A stretch of DNA of 64,000 bases from Nitrospirota bacterium (GTDB lineage: Bacteria > Nitrospirota > UBA9217). The translations under genes were made by a program, and so were the position numbers. The stretch spans positions 2,254 to 66,253 of the forward strand of contig JAWOJY010000003.1 in assembly GCA_033854515.1 (NCBI GenBank), in the 5' to 3' direction. Positions 28,236-43,456 of the stretch are shown in pieces; within the stretch, counting starts at the first letter, position 1; each line of letters begins with the position of its first letter. The notes beneath the pieces were generated by a model, which was not told where the DNA came from, made no database searches, and saw nothing but the letters and a program-made list of their open reading frames with translations.

Positions 28236-29477
28236 TCACTCCGGATAGGCTATTCCCCTCGGGACCTCAGCCTGTTCCTTTCTTACCGGCCAGTACCAGA
28301 GGGCTCCGTCTATAAGCAGCAGAATGCCCGCAGCAATAAGCCAGAGGTTGAACGACGTAAGGAGACCAAAACCGAAATAGCTGATAATACCGATACCGAT
28401 GCTGAGGAACGACATGCCTGTGCGGATGAAAGCCAGCCCGGTCCGGGCACGGGCATAGATGGTGCGGTAACAGCCTGCGATCGTCCGCTGGGCCGCCAGG
28501 ACGTTCCGCTCGCGGGCGAACATGGTGCGCGTCTTGCTCGAAGGCGTGGGATTAAGATAGGTGCTGTGGTCTGCGAGGAAGTCGCCCATCCGCGCAAGCA
28601 TCGTCCCCTGGGACTCCCGCTTGATTCCCGTGTTCTCGATAAAATGATAATTTTCCAGGAACTGGATCGTGGCCGCGGACACCTCGACGAGGGTTTGATG
28701 CCCGGGCGGCGTCATCCTCGATTTCCGCACATTCAGGTATACCGGCAGGCCGTAAAAGGAAATCACGATCCCGATGATGAGCACGGAAAAATAGAGGACG
28801 GGATCGTACGCGATGTTCTTTGATTTGAGCAGGGCGTTGGAGAGCGCGATAGTGCCGAGGCCCCACCGCAGAAAGGCGAGGCCGGTCCTCGCTTTCGCCA
28901 TGTCCGTCCGGTAACAGGCCATCCGCGTCCGCCAGTGCGCCATCGTATTGCGCCAGAAGGCGAGGCCCGTGCGCTCGGTGCCGATCAAAAGGCCTACCCG
29001 TGCATGGAGAAAGTCCTGGATAAACCACTGGATGTCCGAATCGAGCGAGACCCGGAATTCGTATTGGTCCGCCCTGACATGTTTCTTCACGTCTTCCCGC
29101 ATCGCGGCGCTTTCCGGATTTCTCGCGGCGATGACGACTGTGCCCGATTTGTCCTTCATGACCGGCATCCACTGGTACGTTGAGAGCGAGTCAGGGCTGA
29201 GACCGGCAAGAAGCTCGGGCGGGATCGGCAAGCGTTCGTCGTATTCAATGGAGAGACAGTTGTAATATTTCGCAAGCGCCACGAGCAGGTCCTGCTTGGC
29301 TACTTTGTACTCGTCCAGCAGGACTTTTTCGAGATTGACGCCCCGCGCCTGTGCTCTGCTTGCCGCTTCTTCGAGATCAGCCTGGCTCAGCAGCCCCCGT
29401 TCGACCAGAAGGGAGAATTCCGAGCCGGCCCCAACCGCATTTTCGGCGAGATCGCCGTTCATCAGTTCATTTTTCAT
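28236..29477 (-). CDS. Membrane protein: N-terminal GspE/MshE-N-like (T2SSE_N) domain fused to two DUF202-like heptad-repeat/TM modules
   Basis: The N-terminus LLVERGLLSQADLEEAASRAQARGVNLEKVLLDEYKVAKQDLLVALAKYY resembles T2SSE_N/MshEN. Two blocks of R-T-x-x-A-x-x heptads (ERTGLAFWRNTMAHWRTRMACYRTDMAKARTGLAFLRWG and RERNVLAAQRTIAGCYRTIYARARTGLAFIRTG) are each followed by a TM helix. Confidence 0.6.
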   Translation of the reverse strand: MKNELMNGDLAENAVGAGSEFSLLVERGLLSQADLEEAASRAQARGVNLEKVLLDEYKVAKQDLLVALAKYYNCLSIEYDERLPIPPELLAGLSPDSLSTYQWMPVMKDKSGTVVIAARNPESAAMREDVKKHVRADQYEFRVSLDSDIQWFIQDFLHARVGLLIGTERTGLAFWRNTMAHWRTRMACYRTDMAKARTGLAFLRWGLGTIALSNALLKSKNIAYDPVLYFSVLIIGIVISFYGLPVYLNVRKSRMTPPGHQTLVEVSAATIQFLENYHFIENTGIKRESQGTMLARMGDFLADHSTYLNPTPSSKTRTMFARERNVLAAQRTIAGCYRTIYARARTGLAFIRTGMSFLSIGIGIISYFGFGLLTSFNLWLIAAGILLLIDGALWYWPVRKEQAEVPRGIAYPE

Positions 29478-31146
29478 GGTGGTTAAAAGATACCGTCCCC
29501 CATTCAGAGTTTGGTCTTCCGTAATCGGGAATCGTTATCTCCATATCCCCGTAACAGTACGGGTACTCCTTTCTCATGCGTTCGGTGGGAAGCATCCAGC
29601 GGTATCCGTCGACGATCAGTGCAAGCCCGCCGACGATCAGCAAGGCATTGAAGATCGTCCAGCCGGGTGAGGCAACGCCGAAATAGGCCATCAGTCCCGC
29701 CCCGACGGACGTAATGTTCATGCCCGTCCTGACGTACGCCATGCCCGTCCGCGACACTGCCATAACCGTCCGGAGCCTCGCCATGACGCCGCGACGGTCG
29801 GCAAGTACTGTCCGTTCCAAAGCGTGGCCTGTCGTGGCCCAGATGCCGGGCTTCTGGTTCACTGTAACCGGCGGACCGTCCTTGCCCGGTCCCGATCGTT
29901 TGTGTCCGAGCGGAAATACCAGGTCCCAGATCGTTTCCTTGTTCAGTGCCGCGAACACGGACCGTAACCCTTCGATTCCGGACTTGCGACCGCCGAAATA
30001 CCAGTAAAAGCCCTCGGCGGACATGAGAATGCCTGCAGCAATAAGCGCGACGTCGAAGACCGACCACGCTGACCACCTGCTCGTCTCAAACTGCCGCATC
30101 AACCCTATCCCGAGTCCGGTAAAGGTAATGCCGGTGCGCGTAAAGGCGAGTCCCGTCCGCGCTCGGGCGAGCTTCGTCCGGTGGCCGGCAAGCGAGGTCC
30201 GCTCCTCAGCCATGTCGGTCCGGTCGCTCGCGAGGTACCTTCGCCGCATTACCGGCGAGAGATTCTCCCAGTCGGCCCTGAGTTCGGCGGCGCCGTCCGT
30301 GACGGATCCCCGGCTGATAACAGGAGGGCGACCGTCGGATATCGCTGCTTCCAGCACGCAGGTGCCCCACGTCGGCTCCGTGCAGGTGGCATCAATTGGC
30401 TTCGCAGCGATCTTTCGTGAGGGCAGATACCATTTGATCCCGTCATAGACCATAATGATGCCGGCGACGAGGAGCGGCGCTTCGAGGACGAGATAAAAGC
30501 CGGAGCCCAGGACGCGCAGGAACAGGAGAGCGATGACGATGAAGGAGACGCCCGTCCGGACGAAAGCGAGGCCCGTTCTCCCCTTCGCGAAGAGCGTCCG
30601 GTAATGCGCAAAGGTCGATCGCCGGTACGCGAAGAAGGTCCTCACGCGCGCAAGGGGCGTCCGGCCGCCGAAGATGCGGAAATTGCAGTTCACGTCGAAA
30701 TTGTGTTCAATGATGCGGATGAGGTCCGCGGGAAAGGCGATTCGGAAATCGATCTGCTCCACTCCCAGAATTCTCTTAACGTCTTCGATCACGCGCTCAT
30801 CATCGGGACGGAAGGCGATGACCTCGGCCCTCTGCTCGCGCACGGAGAGCGGAAACCACAAAGCCTTCTTCTGGTGCTCGAGGTCGAGCCGCAGGACCAG
30901 AAAGTAGGACGCGGCCACGTTCTCATCGAATTCAACAAAAGGGCGGCCGTAATGTTCTGAAAGGCTGAACAAAATTTCGTGCTTCGGAACGCCTTTTTCA
31001 AGTAACCATTCCTCGGGATATTTACCCACGGTCGCTGACTTTTTTACAGCATCCTCTAATTCCACGTCGGTAAGAATCCCTCTTCTCACCAGCCGTTCAA
31101 ACTTTTTTTTGAACATGACATCAGACATTTTTTCAAAAACCTGCAC
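29467..31146 (-). CDS. Membrane protein: N-terminal GspE/MshE-N-like (T2SSE_N) domain fused to three DUF202-like heptad-repeat/TM modules (paralog of 28236..29477)
   Basis: FERLVRRGILTDVELEDAVKK...EHYGRPFVEF is the T2SSE_N-like part. Three RTxxAxx heptad blocks (RTPLARVRTFFAYRRSTFAHYRTLFAKGRTGLAFVRTG, RTDMAEERTSLAGHRTKLARARTGLAFTRTG and RRGVMARLRTVMAVSRTGMAYVRTG) are each followed by a TM helix. The gene overlaps its downstream paralog by 11 nt. The start is uncertain: GTG at 31146, or ATG at 31128 or 31116. Confidence 0.6.
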   Translation of the reverse strand: MQVFEKMSDVMFKKKFERLVRRGILTDVELEDAVKKSATVGKYPEEWLLEKGVPKHEILFSLSEHYGRPFVEFDENVAASYFLVLRLDLEHQKKALWFPLSVREQRAEVIAFRPDDERVIEDVKRILGVEQIDFRIAFPADLIRIIEHNFDVNCNFRIFGGRTPLARVRTFFAYRRSTFAHYRTLFAKGRTGLAFVRTGVSFIVIALLFLRVLGSGFYLVLEAPLLVAGIIMVYDGIKWYLPSRKIAAKPIDATCTEPTWGTCVLEAAISDGRPPVISRGSVTDGAAELRADWENLSPVMRRRYLASDRTDMAEERTSLAGHRTKLARARTGLAFTRTGITFTGLGIGLMRQFETSRWSAWSVFDVALIAAGILMSAEGFYWYFGGRKSGIEGLRSVFAALNKETIWDLVFPLGHKRSGPGKDGPPVTVNQKPGIWATTGHALERTVLADRRGVMARLRTVMAVSRTGMAYVRTGMNITSVGAGLMAYFGVASPGWTIFNALLIVGGLALIVDGYRWMLPTERMRKEYPYCYGDMEITIPDYGRPNSEWGTVSFNHHEK

Positions 31147-31546
31147 AGCGCTCCGAAAAGCAGACCACCAATCGACCTTTCACTGCGGTCTTATTCGTCA
31201 TTAATTTTTCAGGATTTTCCCTGGTCACGGGAGATCGGCTGCGATTTCAGTAAGGCCGCTGTAGGATGCAGGCGGCGCGCCTCCCGGCCTTTCCGTAAAT
31301 GCTTGGTTGACGGCAGGTGGTCAGGATTCGTCTCTTGCCTCAATACGAACGGAATCTATCGATTCGTTTTCAGAGCCTTCCTAATTCCTGAATGCTTTTA
31401 CCGAGCTTATCCCGCGGCCCGGGAGTCTTTTCAAACGGCCCTTGACAGGCACGTCCGCCTGCCATTATGACCGGTGCCTGGGTCCTTCACGACAGTATCG
31501 ATTTAGATACGCGTCTTTTCTCTGCTCCTTCTTTCATCGTTTACTT

Positions 31547-31969
31547 CTAAATTCCGACAACAAATACCGGACAGGGCGCCCGGTTGATGACTTTTTCGAC
31601 GACATGATCTCCGAAGAGACGGCTGAAAATGCTCTTCTTTTTCTTCGCACCCATGATAATCAGGTCACATTGTTCCTCTGCCGCCACTTCCACGATCTTT
31701 TCGGTTACGTCGCCCTGTTCCAGTCTCATCTTAACCAGTGCGCCTTCGGCTTCCGATGCATTTTGAATTTCCTCAACGGCCTTCCGTGCGCCGTTGTCGA
31801 GGACGTCGCCGATATTCTTGATCCCGGTCAGATTCAAGTCGCCCTCGTACGGCTGGATGACCTTCACGACCGTGATCCACGTTTTCTCGTCTCGGGCGAG
31901 TTGTATGCCTTTGTGCAAAACCTCCCGTGACCCGTTCATTGCGATGAGAACCTTTCTGTACCCTCTCAT
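31547..31969 (-). CDS. Universal stress protein (single UspA domain)
   Basis: KVLIAMNGS...DLIIMGAKKKKSIFSRLFGDHVVEKVINRAPCPVFVV carries the ATP-binding G-x2-G-x9-G-S-type motif of UspA-class Usp. Confidence 0.85.
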   Translation of the reverse strand: MRGYRKVLIAMNGSREVLHKGIQLARDEKTWITVVKVIQPYEGDLNLTGIKNIGDVLDNGARKAVEEIQNASEAEGALVKMRLEQGDVTEKIVEVAAEEQCDLIIMGAKKKKSIFSRLFGDHVVEKVINRAPCPVFVVGI

Positions 31970-31972
31970 GGC

Positions 31973-32830
31973 TCACCTCACCACCAGGATGGGGCAGGAA
32001 GCATTGGTGATTACGCTTCCCGTCGTGCTCCCCATGATGGCCTTGCTCACTCCCTTCCATCCGTGCGTACCCATGACGATAAGATCGTTTTCGAGCCTCT
32101 CGGCGGCCTTCACGATCTCGTCCCCTTCATGCCCTTCCCGGATTTCGGTTCGAACGGAAACACCATGCTCCGAGGCGATTGCTTTTGCCTCGCCGACGAC
32201 TTTCTCGGCTTCCCGATAAAGGCTCTTTTTGATGGAATCGGACCTGAAGAACTCCACCATCTCCTCATAGCGGGGGATTACGTAAAGGACCGTGACCGCC
32301 GCACCGTCCATCTTCGACAGCTCGCAGGCGCGGAGCAACGCTTTTTTGCTGAGTTCCGACTTGTCGAAGGGCAGCAACACGGACGTGTAATTGCCGGTAC
32401 ATTCGCTGCACGGCCGTTTCACCACCAGCACGTCACAGGGAGCATTGAGCACCACCTGCGACGTCACGCTTCCCATCAAGAGCCTCTTCAGGCCTTTTCT
32501 TCCGTAGGTGCCGAGGGCGATTAGGTCTGCGTTCTTCCCCTGGGCCGTTTCGACGATCACGTCGGGCGGCTCTCCTTCGCAGACCATGGACTCGGACTCA
32601 ACGCCTGTTTCCGATGAAATCTCCTGTTTTGCCTGCAGGCAGATCTTCGTACCTATCTCGAACCGTTTCTCCATCTGCGAGGGCAGGATGGCAAATTCCT
32701 CTTTATCGAAATACACGGCATGGACCATAAAAACCTTGCCCCCGTGTTTCTTTACCCAAAGTGACGATTCTTTCAGCGCAGCCTTGCTCGACTCCGATTC
32801 ATCATACCCCACGACGATTGAATTGTACAT
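31973..32830 (-). CDS. Universal stress protein with tandem Usp domains
   Basis: Two Usp repeats (IVVGYDESESS...LIALGTYGRKGLKRLLMGSVTSQVV and VLLPFDKSE...LIVMGTHGWKGVSKAIMGSTTGSVI). Confidence 0.85.
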   Translation of the reverse strand: MYNSIVVGYDESESSKAALKESSLWVKKHGGKVFMVHAVYFDKEEFAILPSQMEKRFEIGTKICLQAKQEISSETGVESESMVCEGEPPDVIVETAQGKNADLIALGTYGRKGLKRLLMGSVTSQVVLNAPCDVLVVKRPCSECTGNYTSVLLPFDKSELSKKALLRACELSKMDGAAVTVLYVIPRYEEMVEFFRSDSIKKSLYREAEKVVGEAKAIASEHGVSVRTEIREGHEGDEIVKAAERLENDLIVMGTHGWKGVSKAIMGSTTGSVITNASCPILVVR

Positions 32831-33642
32831 TAATGCGCTCCCCCGCCTTTTCTGAATATCAGTCCAACGCCGAAACCGGCCGACAGCGCGGCAAGTACGG
32901 ACAGCGCACCGTAGAGAACACCGTTGTTCCTGGCCATGCCGGCAAGGGATTTGACCATCCCGACCTGCTCAACATTCACTTTGGTTTCCGCCTGTTCCAC
33001 CACTTTCTTGTTCTTCACCGCATAAACCGTAACGAGATAATCGCCGGGTGTCGCCTGATACGGCCAGTCGGTCATGATGTAATATTCCTGCCTGCCGTTG
33101 TCGAGAGGCGTAGTGGATATCTTGTTCGAGGACATCGCATAGAGGCTCGACGCTTCTTTGAATTTCAGGAATTCATTGAACCATGCGGTCTTCTCTTCGT
33201 CGCCGGTGACCGGAGTAACTTCCACGTGATTTTTGAGCGACGAATAACCGATTGTGTATTTATCCATTTCTTCAGGGCTCAGGATATCTTCGAGCTTTCC
33301 CGTGCTGTAGACGCTGTAAAAGTTGGGCGCATGTTCGAACTTCAAATCGCCCACGTTCATCCACAGCAGCCCTCCCACCTTTCCTTTTTTCTTGAGCACC
33401 TGATGGCCTTCGGGCGAGGTTATCTTGATCACCAGATCCGTACCGGCGTCGGCCACGCCCTTTACGCTCACGGTGCTGCCGTGGTAAAAGAAGTCGATCT
33501 GGATGTGGTCATGATTCGCCTTGGCCGTCAACTCAGCAGCGGCGGTTCTATCAAATGTAAAATGTAAAACGAAAAATGCAAAAGCAAGGAATACCGTTAT
33601 TTCGAATTTTGGACTTTGAATTTTGAATTTCTTCATTATCAA
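32830..33642 (-). CDS. Secreted periplasmic protein with a C-terminal TM anchor, co-transcribed with the TSUP permease
   Basis: Signal peptide (VFLAFAFFVLHFTFDRTAAA), a soluble domain of about 220 aa and a C-terminal helix VLYGALSVLAALSAGFGVGLIF. Overlaps the upstream gene by 4 nt and abuts the downstream one. Confidence 0.5.
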   Translation of the reverse strand: MIMKKFKIQSPKFEITVFLAFAFFVLHFTFDRTAAAELTAKANHDHIQIDFFYHGSTVSVKGVADAGTDLVIKITSPEGHQVLKKKGKVGGLLWMNVGDLKFEHAPNFYSVYSTGKLEDILSPEEMDKYTIGYSSLKNHVEVTPVTGDEEKTAWFNEFLKFKEASSLYAMSSNKISTTPLDNGRQEYYIMTDWPYQATPGDYLVTVYAVKNKKVVEQAETKVNVEQVGMVKSLAGMARNNGVLYGALSVLAALSAGFGVGLIFRKGGGAH

Positions 33643-34610
33643 TGCCCTCCTGCCTGAGAGATGAGTAATGACGGACTTAAGGTGAGTTCAAAAATTATCT
33701 TGATCGTGACCACGAGAACGATGAGCGCAAGAAGTATCTTGAGCTGTTCGCCCTTCAGCTTCCTGCCGAAGACAGCGCCAACCTGCGCCCCGATTGTGGA
33801 GCCCAGGAGCAGGAGCACGGCAAGGATGAAATCCACGCTGTGGTTCGTATAGGCCTGGAGGAACGTGACCTCGATGCAGGTGAACAGTATCTGGAACAGG
33901 CTCGTGCCTACCACGACGTGCATCGGCATACGCAGGATATAGACCATCACCGGCACCATGAGGAACCCGCCGCCCACACCCATGATCGCAGCAAGGATGC
34001 CGACAAAGCCGCCGAGGATAACAGGCACGAGAGCAGAATGCGTGACGCCGGATTTTTCGAAATGGGTCTGGAGCGGCAAGGACTTCAGGAATTTGGCCAT
34101 ACCCGATTCTTTCTGCTGTTTGGACTCGGCAACGGACGGCTTTTTCTTCATGCTCATGATGCTCTCGACGAGCATATAGGAGCCGACGATGCCGAGCATG
34201 AGCACATAGGTCATTTTGATGACAAAGTCGGCGTTCCCCATGGCCTTGAGCACCTTGATGCCCTGGACGCCGACAAGGCCGCCGAGGAACCCGCCGAGAA
34301 GAAGGTAGAGCCCCATTTTGAAGTCAACGTTGCCCACCTTCCAGTGCGCATACGTGCCGGACGTCGATGCCGCAACGATCTGATTGGAGTCGGTGGCCGC
34401 GGCCACGGTCGACGGAATGCCGAACATGATCAGGAGCGGCGTCATCAGAAACCCTCCGCCTACGCCGAAAAGACCGGAAAGCAGCCCTACGGCGAGCCCG
34501 AGCCCCACGGGAATCAGGATGTTGATACTCGTTAACGCAACAGGCAAGTAAAGATACATTGCACCCACTCCTTTATCCGATATGATTATCTGTACAGGGT
34601 CCATGGCCAT
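33639..34610 (-). CDS. TauE/SafE (TSUP) family anion/sulfite-type permease
   Basis: Two internal repeats carrying the GxGGG signature (GLFGVGGGFLMTPLL and IMGVGGGFLMVPVMV); about 8 TM helices. Confidence 0.8.
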   Translation of the reverse strand: MAMDPVQIIISDKGVGAMYLYLPVALTSINILIPVGLGLAVGLLSGLFGVGGGFLMTPLLIMFGIPSTVAAATDSNQIVAASTSGTYAHWKVGNVDFKMGLYLLLGGFLGGLVGVQGIKVLKAMGNADFVIKMTYVLMLGIVGSYMLVESIMSMKKKPSVAESKQQKESGMAKFLKSLPLQTHFEKSGVTHSALVPVILGGFVGILAAIMGVGGGFLMVPVMVYILRMPMHVVVGTSLFQILFTCIEVTFLQAYTNHSVDFILAVLLLLGSTIGAQVGAVFGRKLKGEQLKILLALIVLVVTIKIIFELTLSPSLLISQAGGH

Positions 34611-34668
34611 GGAAAAACCCTATGCCGTACATTCATGCATGCATGGACAAAAAATCTTTGACCGTGTA

Positions 34669-35166
34669 TCAGGCCACGCAGCAGGCCTGTTTTGTCATGG
34701 TAACGATAGGCCGCGACGACGTCCTGACCAAGCGGTTGAGATCCTTGGACGATATATTGCCCTTCTCGGTCACAGCGGGGCTCAACAGAACCTTGTCGAT
34801 TCCCGAATTCTGCTTGAGAAAGGTCCTGATGCCCGAGACCGCGTCAAGTCCCGTGTTATGGACATGAACGTGAATGCCTTCCTTATGACACTTTTCTACC
34901 AGCTCGGCGAGTTTCTGATCGAGGCGCTTGCGTGCGTCGGGAGAATCCCCGGCCGCAACCTGTCGAGCCGTATCATGGTCATCTTCCTCTGCGAAACTCA
35001 CGGCGGTCATCAGATTTTCGATCTTGTCCATCAGGGTGTTTTTCTTGTGAACGAGCAGAAGCGCGATATCTTCATACATCGCCTTTGCAAGTTCAATGGC
35101 ATATGAAAGCCCATCTTCGAGATTCTCATCGCGGTATGTGACAAATAAAAGCTGTCTCTTTCCCAT
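34669..35166 (-). CDS. Divergent Usp-like protein carrying an inserted SFAEE-motif segment
   Basis: Strong RBS AAGGAGG. Usp-like beta-alpha pattern (LLFVTYRDENLEDGLSYAIELAKAMYEDIALLLV ... KVLLSPA). The insertion LMDKIENLMTAVSFAEEDDHDTARQ matches a motif in two genes of the second Usp operon. It is the first gene after the sigma-54 promoter. Confidence 0.5.
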   Translation of the reverse strand: MGKRQLLFVTYRDENLEDGLSYAIELAKAMYEDIALLLVHKKNTLMDKIENLMTAVSFAEEDDHDTARQVAAGDSPDARKRLDQKLAELVEKCHKEGIHVHVHNTGLDAVSGIRTFLKQNSGIDKVLLSPAVTEKGNISSKDLNRLVRTSSRPIVTMTKQACCVA

Positions 35167-35224
35167 TGGAATTGACCTCCTTGCATGTTCAAACTCCAGT
35201 ATGTTCGAACTTTGCCTTTACATA

Positions 35225-35241
35225 TTGCAATGAGAATGCCA
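35225..35241 (-). promoter_or_regulatory. Sigma-54 (RpoN) -24/-12 promoter: TGGCAT-TCTCA-TTGCAA
   Basis: On the minus strand the sequence reads TGGCATTCTCATTGCAA, with the conserved GG and GC spaced exactly as in the TGGCAC-N5-TTGCW consensus. It lies about 50 nt upstream of the 35166 start, in an AT-rich intergenic region next to a sigma-54 activator gene. Confidence 0.55.
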
Positions 35242-35638
35242 TTTTTTAAGTTATTGTTTTTAAAACATTTGATAACTTAATGCCAAATTATATTGTTTCA
35301 AATTTTAACTATTATGAACATCAGACAAATAATTTAGTATCAATTTCGAATTTCACGCGAAGCAGAAAGTCAGTTTCTACCCTTTATTTAGAGGGCAAAA
35401 CATCATTTTTTAGAGACAGCTAAGTAATAGCGAAATATACTATTTGGCATTTTCTTTCATGTTTCAAAACTGGACATGATTTGTATTTTTGAAATTTATT
35501 GAATAATCTGTTACTATAAGGTGCAATATACATAAAAAATATCTGTTTTTTGAAAAATTTTGCACCTCTTTACAGCAAAAAGTTAAGCGTGCATTCGCGT
35601 CTTTCGCGATTAAAATTGGTTTTAGACAAGGGGAAAAT

Positions 35639-36250
35639 ATGACTGAACCGAATAATCCCGGTGAAGAAAAAGCCTGGGAGATTCTGTCGACGCTGGATCC
35701 GGACAAGCTGTGCAAGGCCGCGTCCGCCTTCTATGACCGAGCGACGGAAAAATACGCTGTGACGTCGCTCGGAATGAGATTCGACGTTTCACCCAAGGAA
35801 AGGACGATTTCGAGCGCCTCACCCGGAAGCGAGGTGATCCTTCATAAACTCGGTTATTTCTTCAAGCTCTCAATCCTGTGGTATCTGGTAAGCGCAAAAG
35901 ACATTCGTTGCACGGAACGTCTCGTGAAGCTTCAGAACATCAAAGGCGGGGATATATTTACTAGGGGGTCGCACCTCCTGCCCCTTGACAGGCTGGAGCT
36001 GAAATACGGGACGAACAAGAGCGGGTTTATCGAGAAGGGGAAAACGCTTGCCGGAGAAATCATGAATTACGGCGACGCTTCGCTGAAGCTCTTCCCTTTT
36101 CCAAGGGTCCCGGTCGTTCTCACGCTCTGGATCGAGGATGAGGAGTTCCCGGCCCGCGTTGATCTGCTGTTCGATTCAACCTGCGATCTGCTGTTGCCGG
36201 TCGATATAATCTGGTCCACAGCCATGCTGACCGTGCTCGCCATGCTGTGA
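35639..36250 (+). CDS. DUF3786-like hypothetical protein
   Basis: 203 aa; RBS AAGGGGAAAA upstream; preceded by a 470-bp AT-rich region; the family assignment is from memory only. Confidence 0.45.
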   Translation: MTEPNNPGEEKAWEILSTLDPDKLCKAASAFYDRATEKYAVTSLGMRFDVSPKERTISSASPGSEVILHKLGYFFKLSILWYLVSAKDIRCTERLVKLQNIKGGDIFTRGSHLLPLDRLELKYGTNKSGFIEKGKTLAGEIMNYGDASLKLFPFPRVPVVLTLWIEDEEFPARVDLLFDSTCDLLLPVDIIWSTAMLTVLAML

Positions 36251-36268
36251 GCGATTGCAGCCTTCGGT

Positions 36269-37609
36269 CTAACTTTCTTCAGCCTCTTTCAGTATGCGCC
36301 ACAGGCTGGTTCTCGAAATGCCGAGCACTTCGGCCGTCTTGGATCTGTTGCCGCCGTACATATCGAGCACTTTTTCCGCGTATTCCTTGTTCAATTCATC
36401 GATGGTCTTGATCCTGTCCGGCTCGAGCGTATCGATCTGGAACATCTTGATGCTCTGGGGCAGGCTCGCGGGGGTAATGAGAGAATCCCGTTCGAGGATG
36501 ATCGCCCGCTCGATGATGTTCTCAAGCTCCCGCACGTTTCCCGGGAAGCTGTACGTCATGAAGATGTCCATTGCGTCTTTGGAGAACCCGCTTATCTTTT
36601 TGCGGGACTTTGGGAGGTGTTTTTCAAGGAAAAACCTGCACAGCGGAGAAATGTCCTCCCTGCGCTCCCGGAGCGGCGGGGTGAATATCTCCATGATGTT
36701 GAGCCGGTAGTAGAGGTCCTCCCTGAACCTCCCTTCCGAGATGAGCGCCCGCACGTTCTGGTTCGTCGCCGCAATAAACCGTACATCAACTTTGATGGGC
36801 CGTGTGCCGCCGACTCTGTAGAATTCGCCTTCCTCGATCACCTTGAGGAGCTTCGCCTGGAGGTTCGGAGACATCTCGGCGATCTCATCAAGGAACAGAG
36901 TGCCCGTGTCGGCGATCTCTACGAGACCCTGTTTGGTCCTGTGAGCTCCGGTGAACGCCCCTTTCTCGTGGCCGAACAGCTCGCTGGCGAGAAGTTCCTC
37001 GGTCAGCGTCGCGCAGTTTATGGAGAGGAATGGCATGTCTTGGCGCCTGCTCGTGAAATGAATGATCTTGGCCAGGAGACTCTTTCCCACGCCGGTCTCA
37101 CCCGTGAGAAGAACGTTGCAATCGGAGTCCTTGATCCCCTCGATGATGCTGAGGATGTTCTTCATGCTCTCGCTTTTCGCGATGATCGATGCCTTCTTAT
37201 CCATTCCGAGGTATGTTTTAAGGGCGATGTTCTCCTTTCTCAGGGTCTTCTGTTCCCGGATCTTGTTCACCTTCAGGATGAGTTCGTCCAGATCGTAGGG
37301 CTTCGTAATGTATTCGTATGCCCCTTTTTTCATTGCATCCACCGCCGACCCGATGCTCCCGAATCCGGTCACGATGATGACCTCCGTATCGAGCTGTTTT
37401 TCCTTGATTGTGTCGAGGAGTTCGATGCCGGTTAGACCCGGCATTTTTATATCGGCGATGAGCACGTCATAGGCGCGGGTTTCCATGTTCTCGAGCGCTT
37501 CCGTTCCGTTCGTTACGCCGGTCACGTCATACCCTTCCTTGGCAAGAGTATTCATGAGGTGCTTCAGGGTTATTTCTTCATCTTCAGCTACAAGTATCTT
37601 AAAAGCCAT
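36269..37609 (-). CDS. Sigma-54-dependent transcriptional activator, NtrC family (REC, AAA+ sigma-54 interaction domain, Fis-type HTH)
   Basis: REC domain (ILVAEDEE, DVLIADIKMPG); Walker A GETGVGKSLLA; GAFTGA motif (EKGAFTGA); the ESELFGHEKGAF region; C-terminal HTH (RSKTAEVLGISRTSLWRILK). Confidence 0.9.
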   Translation of the reverse strand: MAFKILVAEDEEITLKHLMNTLAKEGYDVTGVTNGTEALENMETRAYDVLIADIKMPGLTGIELLDTIKEKQLDTEVIIVTGFGSIGSAVDAMKKGAYEYITKPYDLDELILKVNKIREQKTLRKENIALKTYLGMDKKASIIAKSESMKNILSIIEGIKDSDCNVLLTGETGVGKSLLAKIIHFTSRRQDMPFLSINCATLTEELLASELFGHEKGAFTGAHRTKQGLVEIADTGTLFLDEIAEMSPNLQAKLLKVIEEGEFYRVGGTRPIKVDVRFIAATNQNVRALISEGRFREDLYYRLNIMEIFTPPLRERREDISPLCRFFLEKHLPKSRKKISGFSKDAMDIFMTYSFPGNVRELENIIERAIILERDSLITPASLPQSIKMFQIDTLEPDRIKTIDELNKEYAEKVLDMYGGNRSKTAEVLGISRTSLWRILKEAEES

Positions 37610-37710: not shown

Positions 37711-39300
37711 TCAATCGGAAAAAACAATAATAAACGTCGTTCCCCTGCCTTCTTCGCTTTCAACCAGTATTCCCGCATTGTGTTTTTGTATGATATTAAA
37801 CACGACGGCCAGTCCCAGACCGTTGCCTTTGTCCTTTGTGGTGAAAAAGGGCTCGAAAATCTTATCGAGAGAGTCTTTCGGGATTCCGCTGCCCGAATCG
37901 GACACCTTCACGGTCACTGATCCGTTCGACTTTCTGACGGATGTCCGGATGTCCCCTTCACCATGCATGGCTTCGACCGCGTTCGTAAACAGGTTGATGA
38001 AAACCTGCTCCAACTGCGCGGGATCGGCCTGTACGTAAACACGATGCGGATCGGCGTCGATAGAGAAACGGATGCCGTTCAGGACTTGAGGAGACACGGA
38101 GAGGCGTTTATAAGAGCTGCCGATCAACCCGATCAGTTCCACGTCCCGGAGCTGCGGCTTCTTGCCCCGCGCGAACTCAAGGAGATCTCCCACAATCTTT
38201 TTCACTCTGAGCGTTTCTCCTTCGATATCGTCCACGGCTTCTCTCGCTGCGGGCGGAAGGGCACCGCCGGCCTCTTTTGAAAGCACCTGAGCCGACAGAT
38301 AAATGTTATTGAGGGGGTTATTGAGTTCATGTGCCACCCCCGACGCAAGAGTGCCGATGGCGGCAAGCTTCTTACTCCGCATCAGCTCTTTGTTTTTCCG
38401 GTCGAGTTCTTCGTCTCTTCGTGCGAGTTGTCCCTGCAGGGTATTGAACTCGTCTATAAGCACCCCCACTTCATCGCGGACGTTGTCTTTTGACGGCGGA
38501 TCGTACAGATGCATGTACCATCCCGTGCCGGCCTTTTCCACTATCTTTATCAGGAGCATCAATCGTCGCACGACGTTGCCGCTGATAAAGAACAGCGTCC
38601 CTATGCCGACGATAAAGAACAGCGGGAAAAATATGATAATCGCCGTCTGCGAGACGCGGGTCACGGTCTTCGCATGTTCACGCGCTTCGATATCGAGGTC
38701 ATTGGCTATAACGACGATGTCCTCGCCGTTTTTTCTCAACGTGCCGACTTCCGCATCGAGTTTTCTGAGCCCCGTGACCAGATTGTGGTCCGGCGGCAGC
38801 ATGAACACCGTTTCGAGAATATCCGCCGCGTCCGACGGGCGATGCAAAAAATCCGATTCCATGAACAGGGAAAATTCGGCAGAGTTACGATATGAGGGTT
38901 TTATACGATCAAATGCAGTTGTCAGGCTCTCTCCAGACGCTTCTACTTCATCAAACCTCTGCTCGTACTTCTTCAACCGGTCCCGCAGGGCCAGTTCATC
39001 CTTCCAGTCGATGTGGGGGTTCGCTGCCAGGATATCCTGCATTTCCTTGGTACAGAGATGTACGGCCTTCGATTCTTCCGCGACCTGCTGGGGACTTTTG
39101 GCAAAGAAATAGTTGGTTTCATGCCGTCTCAGATCGAGGGCCTTCCTCATCACAAGGTCCGTTGTCTCCAGGTATCGTATCTCCCTCTTGATCTCCACAA
39201 AATTTATGTATTCGAATACCGTGAGGATGGCGATGATGGCGGCGCTGATGAGAAAACCGATGGTTATTTTCTTCTTAAGTGACACGGCTTTGGCAACCAC
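37711..39300 (-). CDS. Sensor histidine kinase (paralog 1 of a tandem pair)
   Basis: TM, sensor with RRHETNYFFA, TM, HAMP, H-box GVAHELNNPLNNI, HATPase boxes (NLFTNAVEA, DSGSGI, GNGLGLA); begins with GTG. Confidence 0.85.
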   Translation of the reverse strand: MVAKAVSLKKKITIGFLISAAIIAILTVFEYINFVEIKREIRYLETTDLVMRKALDLRRHETNYFFAKSPQQVAEESKAVHLCTKEMQDILAANPHIDWKDELALRDRLKKYEQRFDEVEASGESLTTAFDRIKPSYRNSAEFSLFMESDFLHRPSDAADILETVFMLPPDHNLVTGLRKLDAEVGTLRKNGEDIVVIANDLDIEAREHAKTVTRVSQTAIIIFFPLFFIVGIGTLFFISGNVVRRLMLLIKIVEKAGTGWYMHLYDPPSKDNVRDEVGVLIDEFNTLQGQLARRDEELDRKNKELMRSKKLAAIGTLASGVAHELNNPLNNIYLSAQVLSKEAGGALPPAAREAVDDIEGETLRVKKIVGDLLEFARGKKPQLRDVELIGLIGSSYKRLSVSPQVLNGIRFSIDADPHRVYVQADPAQLEQVFINLFTNAVEAMHGEGDIRTSVRKSNGSVTVKVSDSGSGIPKDSLDKIFEPFFTTKDKGNGLGLAVVFNIIQKHNAGILVESEEGRGTTFIIVFSD

Positions 39301-39448: not shown

Positions 39449-41086
39449 TCAGTTCTCCCCGGCGTCGTTAACGGACGTTCCGACGGCGCCGGAAACAACC
39501 CCTCCCGCCCCCGTCTGTTTCACCGGGAATATGATAATAAACGTTGTTCCCTTTTCCGGTTCGCTTTCAACCAGTATTTCAGCGTTATGCTTTTGCAGGA
39601 TATTGAACACGATTGCCAGCCCCAGCCCCGTGCCCCTGTCCTTCGTTGTAAAAAAAGGCTCGAAAATCTTGTCAAGGGAGTCCTTCGGGATGCCGCATCC
39701 TGAATCGGTTATTTTCATCGTTACTGATTCATCCGACTTTTTGATGGAGACCCGGAGACTGCCTTCATAGCGCATCGCTTCGACGGCATTCATAAAGAGA
39801 TTGATGAAAACCTGCTCCAACTGCGCGGGATCGGCCTGTACACACACGCGTTCGGGATAGGAGTCGACGGAAAAGCGTACCTTGTCCAGGGAGTGAGACA
39901 TTTTGAGATGCTTGAAGGAATGGTCGATCAGGCCTTGTAATTCCACGTCCTCCACCTGCGGTTTTCTGCCGCGCGCGAACTCGAGGAGGTCACCGACGAT
40001 CCTCTTCACCCGAAGCGTTTGGCCGACGATGTCGCCGAGGGCGTTTTTCACCGCAGGCTGAATATGTTCGTTCGCCTCTTTCAAAAGCACCTGGGCCGAC
40101 AGATAGATATTGTTGAGGGGGTTATTGAGTTCGTGCGCCACGCCCGACGCCAGCGTGCCGATTGCGGCCAGCTTCTTCGCTTGCATGAGTTCTCTGTTTT
40201 TCCGGTCGAGTTCTTCTTCTCTCCGGGCAAGCTGGTCCTCCATATCGTTAAATTTGTCGATCAGCAGTCCCACCTCGTCATGAGCGTTGCCTTCGGAAGA
40301 AGAAACGGAAATGTGCGGATAGTTTCCTTTGCCGGTCTTTTCGATTACCTTGATCAGGAGCATCAGTCTCTTGACGGCGCTGCCGCTGATGAAAAAAAGG
40401 GTCCCGATGCCGACGATGAAAAAAATGGGGAAGATCACAAGGATGGCCAGTTGGGAAATGCGGATAACCGTCTCCGTGTTTTCCCTTGCAACTTTGTCGA
40501 GTTCTTTGGAAATAATGAGGATATCTTCACCGTTTTTTCTGAGTGCGGCAATGTCGCCGTCGAGCCTCCTGAGCCCGAAGATTAGTGCGTGATTTGAGGG
40601 AAGCAGGAACCCCTTTTCGAGGACATCAGCCGCCTGAGACGGACGTTCGAGAAACGTCGACTCTATCATCGGGAAGAACTCGGCATGGCTCCGGTGCGCG
40701 GGTTTTATCCCTTCAAACGCCTTCGTCAGGCCGCGAACCGCGACTTCGATGGTGCTGAATCGTTGTTCATATTCGTTGATCCGGTCCCGCAAGGCGAGTT
40801 CATTCTTCCGGTCGATGTGCGGGTTTTTTGTCAGTATGTCCCTGAGCTGCCCCACGTAGTCATGTACCGCCTCTGATTCTTCCTTTGCCATCTGAGTACT
40901 GTAGAGGAAGTAATTCTTTTCGTGCCGCCGGAGTTGGAGGGACTTCCTCATAATCGTATCGGTCGTCTCAAGATACCGGGTTTCCTTTTTGATTTCTATG
41001 AAATTGACATATTCAAACGCCGTAAGCACGGCGATGATTGCGGCGCTTATCAAAAAACTGATTGCTATTTTTTTCTTGAGTGACAT
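39449..41086 (-). CDS. Sensor histidine kinase (paralog 2 of a tandem pair)
   Basis: Near-identical layout and many identical blocks relative to 37711..39300 (MSLKKKIAISFLISAAIIAVLTAFEYVNFIEIK..., GVAHELNNPLNNI, DSGCGI, GTGLGLA); start set at the ATG of MSLKKK. Confidence 0.85.
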   Translation of the reverse strand: MSLKKKIAISFLISAAIIAVLTAFEYVNFIEIKKETRYLETTDTIMRKSLQLRRHEKNYFLYSTQMAKEESEAVHDYVGQLRDILTKNPHIDRKNELALRDRINEYEQRFSTIEVAVRGLTKAFEGIKPAHRSHAEFFPMIESTFLERPSQAADVLEKGFLLPSNHALIFGLRRLDGDIAALRKNGEDILIISKELDKVARENTETVIRISQLAILVIFPIFFIVGIGTLFFISGSAVKRLMLLIKVIEKTGKGNYPHISVSSSEGNAHDEVGLLIDKFNDMEDQLARREEELDRKNRELMQAKKLAAIGTLASGVAHELNNPLNNIYLSAQVLLKEANEHIQPAVKNALGDIVGQTLRVKRIVGDLLEFARGRKPQVEDVELQGLIDHSFKHLKMSHSLDKVRFSVDSYPERVCVQADPAQLEQVFINLFMNAVEAMRYEGSLRVSIKKSDESVTMKITDSGCGIPKDSLDKIFEPFFTTKDRGTGLGLAIVFNILQKHNAEILVESEPEKGTTFIIIFPVKQTGAGGVVSGAVGTSVNDAGEN

Positions 41087-41213
41087 GGTTTTTTTGTTAC
41101 CGGTATGGTACTTTAACACAGAGACTTTCCCCGTGCAACACAAAAGAAAAAGGCCGAAGCAACGCATCGTCGGCGTCCCTGCTTCAGCCTGGCAAAATTC
41201 ACTGCGGCTGTTA

Positions 41214-42068
41214 TTACGACCTGACAATGAGCACGGGGCACCCGGCGTGTCCGATGACCTTTTCGGCCACGCTTCCCATGAGGAGCCTTCTCAAGCCGGT
41301 CCTTCCGTGGGACCCCATGACGATGATGTCCGCTTTTTTCCGCTGTGCGAGGTCGATGATCGCCTGGTACGCTTCTGCCTCGGCTATGAACGTCTCCGCC
41401 TTGATTCCTGCTTCTTCCGCCTGCTTCCGGATCCCCTCGACAAAGCTTTTCGCCTTTTTGACAAGGTCCTCCATGGCCTGCGGGGCCTCGGCGTAAAATT
41501 CTGACGGGACATCTACCACGCAGATGATAATGAGCCCGCCGTTGTATGATTCGGCGAGACTTATAGCCTTCGCGGCTGCAGTCATGCTGAATCGGGACCC
41601 ATCGGTCGCGATCAGGATTTTGTTCCATCCCACCGCTGTCCGAAGCGGCATGACGAGCACATCACGCTCGCTGTGGCCGATGACCCGCGCCGTGACGCTG
41701 CCGACCAGCGCCCGCTCGAAACCGGTCCGGCCTTTTCTGCCCATGATGATAAGATCGGCGTTTTCCGCAACGGCAAGGTCGACGATCCGCTCATGGGGAG
41801 GGCCTTCCTCACAGACGGTCTTGATAAGCGCGCCGTCCGCCTGGGCCATCTTCTGTGCTTCGGCAAGCGCGGCCTCGCAGGGCCTTCTCAGGGACTCCAG
41901 GATGTTTTTCGTGCCCACGAATTCCAGGTCACCCTCGAAGGGAGGAGCAACTGAAGTGACCGTTATCCAGCTCTTTTCATTGAGCGCGAGCTTGAAGGAT
42001 TCCCTCAATGCGTTCATGCTTGACTCCGAGCCGTCAACGGCCACCAGCAGTTTCCTATATCTTCCCAT
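41214..42068 (-). CDS. Universal stress protein with tandem Usp domains
   Basis: Two Usp repeats (KLLVAVDGSESS...LIIMGRKGRTGFERALVGSVTARVI and ILIATDGSRFS...IIVMGSHGRTGLRRLLMGSVAEKVI). Confidence 0.85.
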   Translation of the reverse strand: MGRYRKLLVAVDGSESSMNALRESFKLALNEKSWITVTSVAPPFEGDLEFVGTKNILESLRRPCEAALAEAQKMAQADGALIKTVCEEGPPHERIVDLAVAENADLIIMGRKGRTGFERALVGSVTARVIGHSERDVLVMPLRTAVGWNKILIATDGSRFSMTAAAKAISLAESYNGGLIIICVVDVPSEFYAEAPQAMEDLVKKAKSFVEGIRKQAEEAGIKAETFIAEAEAYQAIIDLAQRKKADIIVMGSHGRTGLRRLLMGSVAEKVIGHAGCPVLIVRS

Positions 42069-43146: not shown

Positions 43147-43147
43147 G

Positions 43148-43402: not shown

Positions 43403-43456
43403 TGTGTTCCTCCTTGAATTATAGGGTTATGCTCCGAGATAAAGCCGTTTGCTCTC

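What the first reader, a model, noticed from the sequence alone, without database searches (positions are those of the whole stretch)
31547..35241. Sigma-54-promoted operon: Usp-like, TSUP permease, periplasmic anchor protein, tandem Usp, Usp
Five co-directional minus-strand genes have gaps of -4 to +58 nt. They sit behind a textbook -24/-12 element (TGGCAT-N5-TTGCAA) located 50 nt upstream of a strong RBS. An NtrC-type activator gene lies about 1 kb away. The operon couples three Usp domains and a divergent Usp-like protein to a TauE/SafE-type anion permease and a secreted, C-terminally anchored protein. A second operon with the same logic sits 6 kb away. This looks like a dedicated sigma-54-controlled stress/export module rather than scattered stress genes.
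Basis: partly seen in the sequence, partly recalled or inferred. Interest (0 to 1): 0.55.

Follow-up and report, generated by a model that had tools for sequence, protein, structure and literature searches.

The report
Sigma-54 operon for TSUP transporter and Usps
This is a real five-gene operon for a membrane anion-type transporter and stress-protein-like regulators, switched on by a sigma-54 promoter and a neighbouring two-component activator; the control logic is textbook, the cargo is uncharacterised, and its first gene carries a short helical module not found in Pfam or the searched literature that recurs at the head of similar operons.

Summary
Five co-directional minus-strand genes (31547..35166) sit behind TGGCATtctcaTTGCA (35241..35226). 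They encode a 165-aa protein with no family hit, a TSUP/TauE permease, a PF09608 periplasmic protein with a C-terminal anchor, a tandem Usp and a single Usp.

The promoter is not a chance match. In 31 of 34 Nitrospirota loci a GGCAY-N5-NTGCW element lies 41-77 nt upstream of the first gene's ATG. Background is 0.004 per 150 nt. The surrounding bases vary.

Four further conserved blocks complete a classic enhancer-dependent architecture: two 16-bp palindromic sites (GTTCCAnATTTAAACA type), an A-rich IHF-like box and a mid block.

A histidine kinase and an NtrC-type activator with GAFTGA lie upstream in most loci that extend far enough. The second operon is real too. It has a conserved TGGCAC-N5-TTGA(A/T) promoter but a different palindrome (GTTGCA-N3-TGCAAC), which tracks a second activator (48346..49707).

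Gene 1 is Usp-like by predicted fold only. It shares a ~35-aa 'FAEAGE' module with both lead genes of operon 2. Proteins with 3-4 such modules head sigma-54 operons elsewhere, ahead of TSUP or DASS transporters.

Sigma-54-controlled TSUP operons are already known in Desulfovibrio. I file this as a new member of a known kind, substrate unknown.

The parts
35460..35475 (-). Distal enhancer site (UAS1), GTCCAGTTTTGAAACA
   Evidence: 11.7 bits on a PWM built from 43 orthologous sites. The equivalent site lies 216-246 nt upstream of TGGCA in 27 loci.
35380..35396 (-). Conserved mid block (gcCTGyAAAyAAAGG type), function unknown
   Evidence: Conserved column block between the two UAS in a 28-sequence MAFFT alignment.
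35294..35319 (-). Proximal enhancer site: GTTCA half-site (35319..35315) plus 16-mer GTTAAAATTTGAAACA (35309..35294)
   Evidence: The 16-mer scores 19.5 bits, the top PWM hit in the whole window. It sits at a fixed 68-70 nt upstream of TGGCA in relatives.
35247..35261 (-). A-rich box AAAAACAataacTTA, IHF-like (AACAR-N4-TTR)
   Evidence: Invariant AAAAACA in fixed register 13 nt upstream of TGGCA in 32 aligned promoters. Assignment to IHF is inference from the WATCAR-N4-TTR consensus.
35226..35241 (-). Sigma-54 -24/-12 promoter TGGCATtctcaTTGCA (GG 35240-35239, GC 35228-35227); predicted start about 35215
   Evidence: Unique in the window. Conserved in 31 of 34 loci against a background of 0.004 per 150 nt.
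34669..35166 (-). Gene 1: 165-aa Nitrospirota-specific protein with a Usp-like predicted fold and an inserted FAEAGE helical module (residues 39-75)
   Evidence: 690 homologues, none with a Pfam domain. Fold results. Module shared with operon 2 proteins.
33639..34559 (-). TSUP/TauE-SafE family permease, 306 aa
   Evidence: PF01925, E 1e-49. 82-88% identical in relatives. Start supported by the RBS and by the independent gene call.
32830..33636 (-). PF09608 (Alph_Pro_TM) protein: signal peptide, two Ig-like beta-sandwich domains, C-terminal TM anchor
31973..32830 (-). Tandem Usp; both halves carry the G-2x-G-9x-G(S/T) ATP motif
31547..31969 (-). Single-domain Usp without the ATP motif
36269..37609 (-). 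EBP1: NtrC-type response regulator (REC, AAA+ with GAFTGA, HTH_8; recognition helix GISRTSLWRI); proposed activator of operon 1
   Evidence: A 75-82% ortholog lies upstream of gene 1 in most loci that extend far enough.
37711..39300 (-). HK1: sensor kinase with 2 TM segments and a ~195-aa unassigned periplasmic domain; recent duplicate of HK2
   Evidence: 66% identical to HK2.
39449..41086 (-). HK2: sensor kinase, the copy conserved in relatives; true start probably M28 at 41086
41141..41190 (-). Terminator-like hairpin plus UUUUCUUUU after operon 2
41214..44175 (-). Operon 2: 58-aa FAEAGE protein (43999..44175), FAEEG + divergent Usp 166 aa (43457..43957), 83-aa 2-TM protein (43148..43399), TSUP2 (42055..43146), tandem Usp (41214..42068)
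44213..44228 (-). Operon 2 sigma-54-type promoter TGGCACggtacTTGAT (non-canonical -12)
   Evidence: TGGCAY-N5-TTG(A/T)(A/T) lies about 50-65 nt upstream of the small ORF in all 5 loci examined.
44321..44403 (-). UAS2 sites: TTGCATTTTGCAA (44403..44391) and GGTTGCATTTAAAATTGAAC (44340..44321)
   Evidence: The TTGCA-N3-TGCAA palindrome is unique in the window. The same motif lies upstream of operon 2 in L007, L015 and L016. It also follows the stop of EBP2 orthologs in L038 and L042.
44347..49707 (+). Divergent Lon protease with receiver domain (44347..46593, start uncertain), HK3 (46752..48344), EBP2 (48346..49707, GAFTGA, helix GIDRVSLWRK); proposed regulators of operon 2

Best explanation
Operon 1 (gene 1, TSUP, PF09608 protein, tandem Usp, Usp) is transcribed from a sigma-54 promoter at 35241..35226. 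The proposed chain runs as follows.

1. A membrane histidine kinase (HK2, with its duplicate HK1) has an unassigned ~195-aa periplasmic sensor domain and senses an extracytoplasmic signal.
2. The kinase phosphorylates the NtrC-type activator EBP1.
3. EBP1 binds the two GTTCCAnATTTAAACA-type palindromes about 70 and 230 nt upstream of the -24 element.
4. An A-rich, IHF-like box between enhancer and promoter helps DNA looping.
5. The AAA+ domain, through GAFTGA, remodels the closed sigma-54 holoenzyme complex.

The products form a membrane transport unit. It consists of a TSUP permease and a periplasmic, Ig-like, C-terminally anchored partner. Its activity is probably tuned by nucleotide-binding Usp proteins and by the FAEAGE/Usp-like lead protein.

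The most likely substrate class is a small anion, possibly a sulfur oxyanion.

Operon 2 is a distant paralogous module (TSUP 30% identical). It has its own sigma-54-type promoter and a different enhancer, most likely served by EBP2.

Status of each step:
- Shown by sequence and comparison: gene content, promoter and enhancer conservation, synteny with HK and EBP.
- Inferred: which EBP binds which site, IHF involvement, transporter substrate and direction, and a regulatory role for the Usps and for gene 1.
For: - Promoter: unique in the window. Conserved in 31 of 34 loci at 41-77 nt from the ATG, against 0.004 expected per 150 nt. Information content is high only at TGGCA, TTGC and the AAAAACA box, and low in the spacer and UTR.
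- Enhancer: two sites at fixed distances. PWM hits of at least 15 bits in 515 kb of loci fall almost exclusively upstream of gene 1. The proximal site is the best hit in the window.
- Regulators: EBP1 has REC, Sigma54_activat, HTH_8 and GAFTGA. The HK-EBP1 pair is syntenic upstream of gene 1 in most loci that extend far enough, and immediately adjacent in L005, L016 and L030-L032.
- Operon structure: junctions of +2, -1 and +3 nt between genes 2-5. Gene 1 and TSUP are co-directional with 26-212 nt gaps in relatives.
- EBP2 and UAS2 link: EBP2 orthologs (68% and 78% identical) are followed directly by GTTGCA...TGCAAC palindromes and a canonical -24/-12. The same palindrome is unique in the window, upstream of operon 2.
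- Precedent: sigma-54-dependent TSUP operons bound by two-component EBPs in Desulfovibrio vulgaris (PMC4641369).
- Substrate hint: TauE/SafE and its 'co-occurring transmembrane protein' rise during thiosulfate disproportionation in Dissulfuribacter (PMC13490349). FAEAGE lead proteins also precede DASS/CitMHS-TrkA_C anion transporters.
Against: - There is no transcript or protein data for this organism, so the start site is only predicted.
- rpoN was not seen. It is not in the window, and the genome could not be scanned.
- The distal UAS in the window is weak (11.7 bits).
- In Nitrospiraceae loci L023-L025 both paralogous EBPs sit upstream of similar GTTC...AAAC sites. Site-to-EBP assignment is therefore not exclusive.
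- The 109-nt gene1-TSUP gap contains a weak hairpin at the stop codon, so partial termination is possible.
- TSUP substrates are notoriously unpredictable (PMC5840216).
- The g3 fold is a generic Ig-like sandwich and gives no substrate clue.
- The IHF assignment rests on a consensus resemblance with one mismatch.
Confidence: 0.72

Rival explanations
1. The promoter is sigma-54-dependent, but it is activated by a different enhancer-binding protein (EBP2 or one encoded elsewhere). On this view EBP1 controls other targets.
For: Two EBPs lie within 15 kb. In L023-L025 paralogous EBPs sit next to similar sites. In D. vulgaris two EBPs share one motif upstream of a TSUP operon (PMC4641369).
Against: EBP1 orthologs, not EBP2 orthologs, lie upstream of gene 1 wherever the UAS1 sites are found. 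EBP2 orthologs are followed by a different palindrome. The HTH recognition helices differ: GISRTSLWRI against GIDRVSLWRK.
Confidence: 0.1
2. The genes are mainly transcribed from sigma-70-type promoters in the AT-rich 470-nt intergenic region. On this view the -24/-12 look-alike is conserved for another reason, for example as a repressor site.
For: Nine sigma-70-like matches in 31000..36400 against 4.5 expected.
Against: No -35/-10-like block is conserved in the 28-sequence alignment. The blocks that are conserved are TGGCA-N5-TTGC, the A-box and the palindromes. GG and GC keep exact 10-nt spacing in 31 loci. Adjacent EBPs have no known role without sigma-54 (established knowledge of bEBPs).
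Confidence: 0.05
3. The module is not a stress exporter. It is an uptake or exchange system for a respiratory or assimilatory sulfur oxyanion (sulfate, sulfite or thiosulfate). The Usps would act as energy-state (ATP) gates.
For: TSUP proteins are candidate sulfate transporters in sulfate reducers (PMC5840216). In Dissulfuribacter the TauE + TM pair and the adjacent PEP synthase rise in thiosulfate disproportionation, while a nearby Usp and a SAC1-like DASS change in the opposite direction (PMC13490349). FAEAGE lead genes also precede DASS/Na_sulph_symp transporters. Relatives include Dissulfurispiraceae.
Against: No sulfur-metabolism gene is in the window. No substrate can be read from a TSUP sequence. 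It is not shown that the Dissulfuribacter TM protein belongs to PF09608.
Confidence: 0.3
4. Gene 1 and the other FAEAGE-module proteins are feedback regulators of the activator or kinase, in the manner of PspA-PspF. On this view they are not transporter partners.
For: They are always the first gene behind the sigma-54 promoter and next to an EBP: the window (both operons), the 31 related loci with a promoter, and four unrelated contigs. Gene 1 is highly conserved, with 59 invariant positions among 20 sequences. Stand-alone 56-58-aa versions exist.
Against: There is no interaction evidence. Three orphan gene 1 paralogs lie away from any EBP or TSUP. The Usp-like fold fits transporter regulation as well; TeaD of the TeaABC TRAP transporter is among the fold hits.
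Confidence: 0.12

Closest known systems
Sigma-54-dependent TSUP permease operon DVU0132-DVU0133 of Desulfovibrio vulgaris Hildenborough, bound by the two-component EBPs DVU0110 and DVUA0057 (PMC4641369)
   Same: A TSUP transporter operon behind a -24/-12 promoter, activated by NtrC-type response regulators with GAFTGA. A conserved upstream motif was found there by comparative genomics. The substrate is unknown. That organism has nine sigma-54 operons for TSUP or PSE transporters.
   Different: Different phylum and a different enhancer motif. The paper does not mention Usp genes, a PF09608 partner or a FAEAGE lead gene. I could not compare the sequences.
Classical NtrC/XylR-type enhancer-dependent promoters (glnAp2, Pu): tandem UAS + IHF site + -24/-12 (established knowledge)
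   Same: Two palindromic activator sites upstream, an intervening A/T-rich IHF-like element, TGGCAY-N5-TTGCW, and a cognate HK/REC-AAA+-HTH_8 regulator encoded next door.
   Different: The two UAS are about 150 bp apart rather than adjacent. The A-box sits unusually close to -24, in a fixed 13-nt register. Nothing here has been tested experimentally.
TeaD, the Usp encoded with and regulating the TeaABC TRAP transporter of Halomonas elongata (PDB 3hgm)
   Same: An ATP-binding Usp co-encoded with a transporter. 3hgm is among the fold hits of gene 1.
   Different: TRAP rather than TSUP transporter, one Usp rather than four Usp or Usp-like units, and not known to depend on sigma-54. The regulatory role of TeaD is recalled from memory and was not checked here.
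Dissulfuribacter thermophilus cluster DITHS69_1988-1990: PEP synthase, 'transmembrane protein co-occurring with sulfite exporter TauE/SafE', TauE/SafE (PMC13490349)
   Same: A TauE permease paired with a dedicated membrane protein, with Usp and PEP-synthase-like genes nearby. The window has a PPDK_N/PEP-utilizers gene at 20828..23443 on the same strand, and L040 has one directly after the tandem Usp.
   Different: Desulfobacterota. The regulation is not described. Family membership of the partner protein was not verified.
NmpR (NtrC-like) regulon of Myxococcus xanthus, which includes the Usp MXAN_3966 (PMC11841059)
   Same: A Usp gene under an NtrC-type, sigma-54-dependent response regulator.
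   Different: A single Usp and an oxygen-related regulon. The paper's text does not mention TauE or a permease.

Membership tests
Sigma-54 (-24/-12) promoter | GG and GC dinucleotides 10 nt apart within TGGCAC-N5-TTGCW | tested here: met
Sigma-54 (-24/-12) promoter | Correct orientation and distance to a gene start, conserved in orthologous loci | tested here: met
   31 of 34 loci, 41-77 nt from the ATG, against a background of 0.004 per 150 nt.
Sigma-54 (-24/-12) promoter | A cognate bEBP with GAFTGA and upstream activator sites | tested here: met
   EBP1 GAFTGA at residue 217. Two conserved palindromes.
Sigma-54 (-24/-12) promoter | rpoN present in the genome; transcription start about 12 nt downstream of GC; rpoN dependence | not testable with these tools
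   rpoN is not in the window. No expression data exist.
NtrC-family two-component enhancer-binding protein (EBP1, EBP2) | REC domain with acceptor Asp + AAA+ Sigma54_activat with GAFTGA + C-terminal HTH_8 | tested here: met
   No NCBIfam equivalog cut-off is reached (best hit AtoC, 439 bits against a cut-off of 714). It is therefore not an ortholog of any named EBP.
TSUP / TauE-SafE (PF01925, TC 2.A.102) | Match to PF01925 above the gathering score; multi-pass membrane protein | tested here: met
   169.9 bits against a cut-off of 32.6. Seven hydrophobic segments by a simple hydropathy scan.
TSUP / TauE-SafE (PF01925, TC 2.A.102) | Sulfite or organosulfonate export activity (TauE/SafE proper) | not testable with these tools
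   The substrate cannot be inferred from sequence (PMC5840216).
Alph_Pro_TM (PF09608) / TIGR02186 | Pfam model match above the gathering score | tested here: met
   174.5 bits against a cut-off of 24.5.
Alph_Pro_TM (PF09608) / TIGR02186 | NCBIfam TIGR02186 hypothetical-equivalog cut-off | tested here: not met
   83.2 bits against a cut-off of 255. It is a family relative, not the alphaproteobacterial equivalog.
Universal stress protein (PF00582) | Pfam match; G-2x-G-9x-G(S/T) ATP motif for the ATP-binding class | tested here: met
   Genes 4 and 5 match PF00582. Both halves of gene 4 have the motif; gene 5 lacks it.
Universal stress protein (PF00582), applied to gene 1 | Sequence-level match to the Usp family | tested here: not met
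   No Pfam or NCBIfam hit. hhalign probability 0.2%. No Usp among PDB sequence hits. Only the predicted fold resembles Usp.

The most novel reading that the evidence does not exclude
The ~35-aa FAEAGE helical module occurs alone, in tandem repeats, or attached to or inserted in a divergent Usp-like domain. It may mark a previously undescribed class of lead proteins of sigma-54/EBP-controlled anion-transporter operons (TSUP or DASS) in several lineages. Such proteins might couple the transporter's state back to the activator or kinase, or gate the transporter.
Probability: 0.2. Interest if true: 0.6.

Novelty: new member of a known kind. Interest (0 to 1): 0.4.

Why it matters
This locus gives a complete, testable regulatory map for two uncharacterised transporter modules in uncultured Nitrospirota. 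The map covers sensor kinase, activator, two enhancer sites, a bending box and the promoter. Many members of this phylum are sulfur-cycling organisms.

TSUP permeases are abundant and almost entirely without assigned substrates. A tightly regulated TSUP with a fixed periplasmic partner and four Usp-type proteins is a good entry point for finding a substrate and for asking what Usps do at transporters.

The recurring FAEAGE lead protein is a small, new handle on sigma-54 operons that no family database describes.

Tried and rejected
- Rfam scan of the whole window at gathering thresholds: no RNA family.
- Folding of the gene1-TSUP gap: no more stable than shuffles (z = 0.12). No case for an RNA element.
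- tblastn of the PF09608 protein against plasmids, to test TSUP pairing outside Nitrospirota: no match. The homolog search listed only close Nitrospirota relatives. Generality of the TSUP-PF09608 pairing therefore rests on a SEED-style annotation quoted in PMC13490349.
- HK2 periplasmic domain: no Pfam hit at E <= 10 and no PDB sequence hit. The signal is unknown.
- Orphan gene 1 paralogs (L019, L026, L028) lack the promoter. Where examined (L019, L028) they sit among unrelated genes such as OmpA, FtsX, ThrRS and CLC. Uninformative.
- Sigma-54 promoter ahead of the downstream MshEN-DUF202 genes: rejected. The few matches in relatives fall inside a tatA-like coding sequence, and the window's candidate has the wrong spacing.
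- Literature searches for Alph_Pro_TM, TIGR02186 and PF09608 and for the FAEAGE motif: nothing relevant.
- Idea that HK2-HK1-EBP1 are co-transcribed with operon 2 as a cascade: weakened by a terminator-like hairpin plus U-run at 41190..41141.

Full report
**1. What is in the sequence.**

On the minus strand between 31547 and 35166 lie five ORFs. An independent gene caller found the same genes on the source contig, GCA_037932185.1.
- Gene 2 is a TSUP/TauE-SafE permease (PF01925, E 1e-49).
- Gene 3 is a PF09608 Alph_Pro_TM protein (E 4e-51).
- Gene 4 is a tandem Usp.
- Gene 5 is a single Usp.
- Gene 1 has no hit in Pfam or NCBIfam.

Gene 3 has an N-terminal signal-like hydrophobic segment ending in AAA-E. 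It also has a C-terminal hydrophobic segment followed by RKGGGAH. Its AF2 model shows two Ig-like beta-sandwiches.

Junctions between genes 2-5 are +2, -1 and +3 nt. The TSUP start with a ribosome-binding site is ATG 34559, not 34610. The gene1-TSUP gap is therefore 109 nt, not 58.

**2. The promoter is real.**

TGGCATTCTCATTGCA (35241..35226) is the only exact match to TGGCAT-N5-TTGCA in the window; 0.03 are expected.

I aligned 20 gene 1 homologues and used the alignment to fetch 34 loci from GTDB species genomes. All are Nitrospirota.
- In 31 of the 34 loci a .GGCAY-N5-.TGCW element lies 41-77 nt upstream of the gene 1 ATG.
- The density of the same pattern elsewhere in these loci is 0.004 per 150 nt.
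- Column-wise information is high at TGGCA and TTGC. It is near zero in the N5 spacer and the 5' UTR. The element is therefore kept by selection, not only by shared ancestry.
- The three exceptions (L019, L026, L028) have no TSUP, Usp or EBP match nearby. Pfam scans around two of them show unrelated genes.

**3. The promoter sits in a full enhancer architecture.**

Anchoring the upstream regions on TGGCA reveals four further conserved blocks.
- An invariant AAAAACA-N5-TTA box lies 13 nt upstream of TGGCA. It resembles the IHF consensus WATCAR-N4-TTR with one mismatch. That reading is my inference.
- A proximal site GTTCA-N5-GTTCAAATATGAAACA starts 68-70 nt upstream.
- A mid block gcCTGyAAAyAAAGG has no assigned function.
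- A distal GTTCCAtATTTAAACA lies 216-246 nt upstream.

A PWM built from 43 such 16-mers finds hits of at least 15 bits almost only at these two places in 515 kb of loci. In the window the proximal site (35309..35294) is the best hit at 19.5 bits. The distal site (35475..35460) scores 11.7 bits.

**4. The regulators.**

The gene at 36269..37609 encodes a REC + AAA+ (GAFTGA at residue 217) + HTH_8 protein, EBP1. Upstream of it are two 2-TM histidine kinases, HK1 and HK2. Their ~195-aa periplasmic domains match nothing. HK1 and HK2 are 66% identical. Relatives mostly show a single kinase match upstream of EBP1.

In most loci that extend far enough, an HK2 ortholog and a 75-82% EBP1 ortholog lie upstream of gene 1. 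In L005, L016 and L030-L032 they are directly adjacent. In L030 the distal site scores 22 bits inside the 3' coding end of the EBP gene. L031 and L032 have only a weak look-alike there. Sigma-54 itself is not encoded in the window and I could not search the genome for it.

**5. The second operon.**

The second operon spans 41214..44175 and contains five genes:
- a 58-aa protein;
- a 166-aa protein, some relatives of which are annotated as Usp or hit PF00582;
- an 83-aa 2-TM protein;
- a second TSUP, 30% identical to the first;
- a second tandem Usp, 31% identical to the first.

Its candidate promoter TGGCACggtacTTGAT has a non-canonical -12. The same TGGCAY-N5-TTG(A/T)(A/T) lies about 50-65 nt upstream of the small ORF in all five loci examined.

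The upstream palindromes differ from those of operon 1. They are GTTGCATTTTACAAC in relatives and TTGCATTTTGCAA in the window at 44403..44391, where it is unique.

Divergent from operon 2 lie a Lon protease with a receiver domain, a HAMP kinase (HK3) and a second activator, EBP2 (48346..49707). EBP2 has GAFTGA and is 45% identical to EBP1.

Two unrelated metagenomic contigs carry EBP2 orthologs (68% and 78% identical). Each is followed directly by GTTGCAcTTTGCAAC-type palindromes and a canonical TGGCAT-N5-TTGCW. LonREC or HK3 orthologs are divergent from operon 2 in L015, L016 and L030. The HTH recognition helices differ: GISRTSLWRI in EBP1 types and GIDRVSLWRK in EBP2 types.

I therefore assign EBP1 to operon 1 and EBP2 to operon 2. 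This is inference, not shown. In L023-L025 both paralogous EBPs precede similar GTTC...AAAC sites.

A strong hairpin followed by UUUUCUUUU (41190..41141) separates operon 2 from HK2. It also implies that HK2 starts at M28, coordinate 41086.

**6. Gene 1 and the FAEAGE module.**

Gene 1 belongs to a small family.
- There are 690 homologues at 90% clustering. Every hit that carries a taxon name is Nitrospirota.
- Only 256 representatives out of 1.84 billion reach E <= 1e-3.
- The AF2 model (pLDDT 72) finds only Usp structures at the top of the PDB list (E 3e-5, TM 0.5-0.57).
- Sequence profiles do not connect it to Usp.
- It lacks the ATP motif that both halves of the tandem Usps have.

Profile comparison of gene 1 with the 166-aa protein of operon 2 is significant only over 37 columns (probability 97%, E 3.5e-11). 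That stretch is the module K..M..IE..M.A.SFAE(A/E)GE..TAR.

The module occurs in several arrangements:
- inserted in the fold of gene 1;
- N-terminal in the operon 2 protein;
- alone in the 58-aa ORF;
- duplicated in the 201-aa gene 1 variants.

It occurs nowhere else in the six-frame translation of the window.

The representative search also returned proteins with 3-4 tandem modules ahead of a Usp-like domain. All four contexts I could fetch have an EBP gene next door and a -24/-12 element 50-90 nt upstream.
- In two of them a DASS/CitMHS-TrkA_C transporter follows the lead gene.
- In one, REC-REC-HK-TauE-247 aa-tandem Usp-PPDK-like genes follow.
- The fourth is a fragmentary contig in which a receiver-domain gene follows.

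No paper in the library mentions the motif.

**7. Function.**

The regulatory logic is well supported. The cargo function is not.

The best reading is a TSUP permease working with a periplasmic Ig-like partner. ATP-binding Usps and the FAEAGE/Usp-like protein would modulate it. TeaD of the TeaABC TRAP transporter is among the fold hits.

A sulfur-oxyanion substrate is plausible but unproven.
- TSUPs are candidate sulfate transporters in sulfate reducers (PMC5840216).
- In Dissulfuribacter, TauE/SafE, its 'co-occurring transmembrane protein' and the adjacent PEP synthase rise during thiosulfate disproportionation (PMC13490349).
- A PPDK_N/PEP-utilizers gene lies at 20828..23443 in the window. 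One also lies right after the tandem Usp in L040.

Direction of transport (export or uptake) and the inducing signal are unknown.

**8. Comparison with what is known.**

- Sigma-54-dependent TSUP operons bound by two-component EBPs are documented in Desulfovibrio vulgaris. Nine sigma-54 operons there encode TSUP or PSE transporters, and DVU0132-0133 is bound by DVU0110 and DVUA0057 (PMC4641369).
- NtrC-type control of a Usp is documented in Myxococcus (PMC11841059).
- A cross-phylum survey predicts sigma-54-regulated Usp genes in Planctomycetia (PMC12316311).

The finding is thus a new, well-resolved member of a known kind. The FAEAGE lead-protein module is the one element I could not find described anywhere.

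**9. Verdict.**

It is unproven for 'stress/export'. Interest is moderate (0.4): ordinary regulation, uncharacterised cargo, and one small novel motif worth a follow-up.

Noticed in passing
window 35004 (gene 1), 43906 and 44136 (operon 2); L021-L025; L038, L040-L042: A ~35-aa FAEAGE helical module is shared by the lead genes of both operons. It is duplicated in 201-aa variants. In other metagenomic proteins it occurs in 3-4 tandem copies, always next to sigma-54 activators.
   Followed up: partly
L010 9480..12300, L017 9490..12720, L018 9480..12520: An MFS transporter gene (about 505 aa) lies between gene 1 and TSUP. In L010 and L018 it is followed by a degraded second copy of the gene 1 3' end (L017 keeps only a short remnant). 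L010 also carries an extra UAS1 copy there (26.5 bits at 11939). This looks like an insertion with partial duplication inside the operon.
   Followed up: partly
L001-L004, L006, L007, L010, L012, L016, L018, between gene 5 and the MshEN genes: A small tatA-like gene (MFEGLFQPMHLILILLIVLIIFGPGKLPELG...) follows the single Usp in many relatives. It is absent from the window.
   Followed up: no
window 28236..31146 (-): Two paralogous MshEN + DUF202 membrane proteins (32% identical) follow the operon in about two thirds of the related loci. MshEN domains bind c-di-GMP in other systems (recalled from memory). No sigma-54 promoter or UAS1 was found ahead of them.
   Followed up: partly
window 35380..35396 (-): A conserved block gcCTGyAAAyAAAGG lies midway between the two enhancer sites and has no assigned function.
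   Followed up: no
window 1523..1538 (+): A perfect TGGCACtcattTTGCT lies antisense inside the DUF763 gene (834..1991, minus strand) with no downstream plus-strand gene. It is probably a chance match.
   Followed up: no
L030 8711..8726: The distal enhancer site lies inside the 3' coding end of the EBP gene, at codons for K-L-F-H-I-E-T. One stretch of DNA would serve both as coding sequence and as activator site. L031 and L032 have only a weak look-alike at the same place.
   Followed up: no
window 44347..46593 (+): A Lon-type protease (AAA + Lon_C) carries an embedded response-regulator receiver domain. It is divergent from operon 2 and ahead of HK3-EBP2. It is conserved in L015 and L016. Its start codon is uncertain, because the mechanical ORF overlaps the UAS2 sites.
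   Followed up: no
window 20828..23443 (-); L040 10305..; L008 10409..11503: A PPDK_N + PEP-utilizers protein (about 860 aa) recurs near TauE-Usp modules. This echoes the PEP synthase adjacent to TauE in Dissulfuribacter (PMC13490349).
   Followed up: partly
window 54007..58618: A further tandem Usp (57773..58618, +) lies near a GAF histidine kinase (54007..56364, -) and a PBP-like protein (56368..57363, -). The region is rich in Usp and signalling genes.
   Followed up: no
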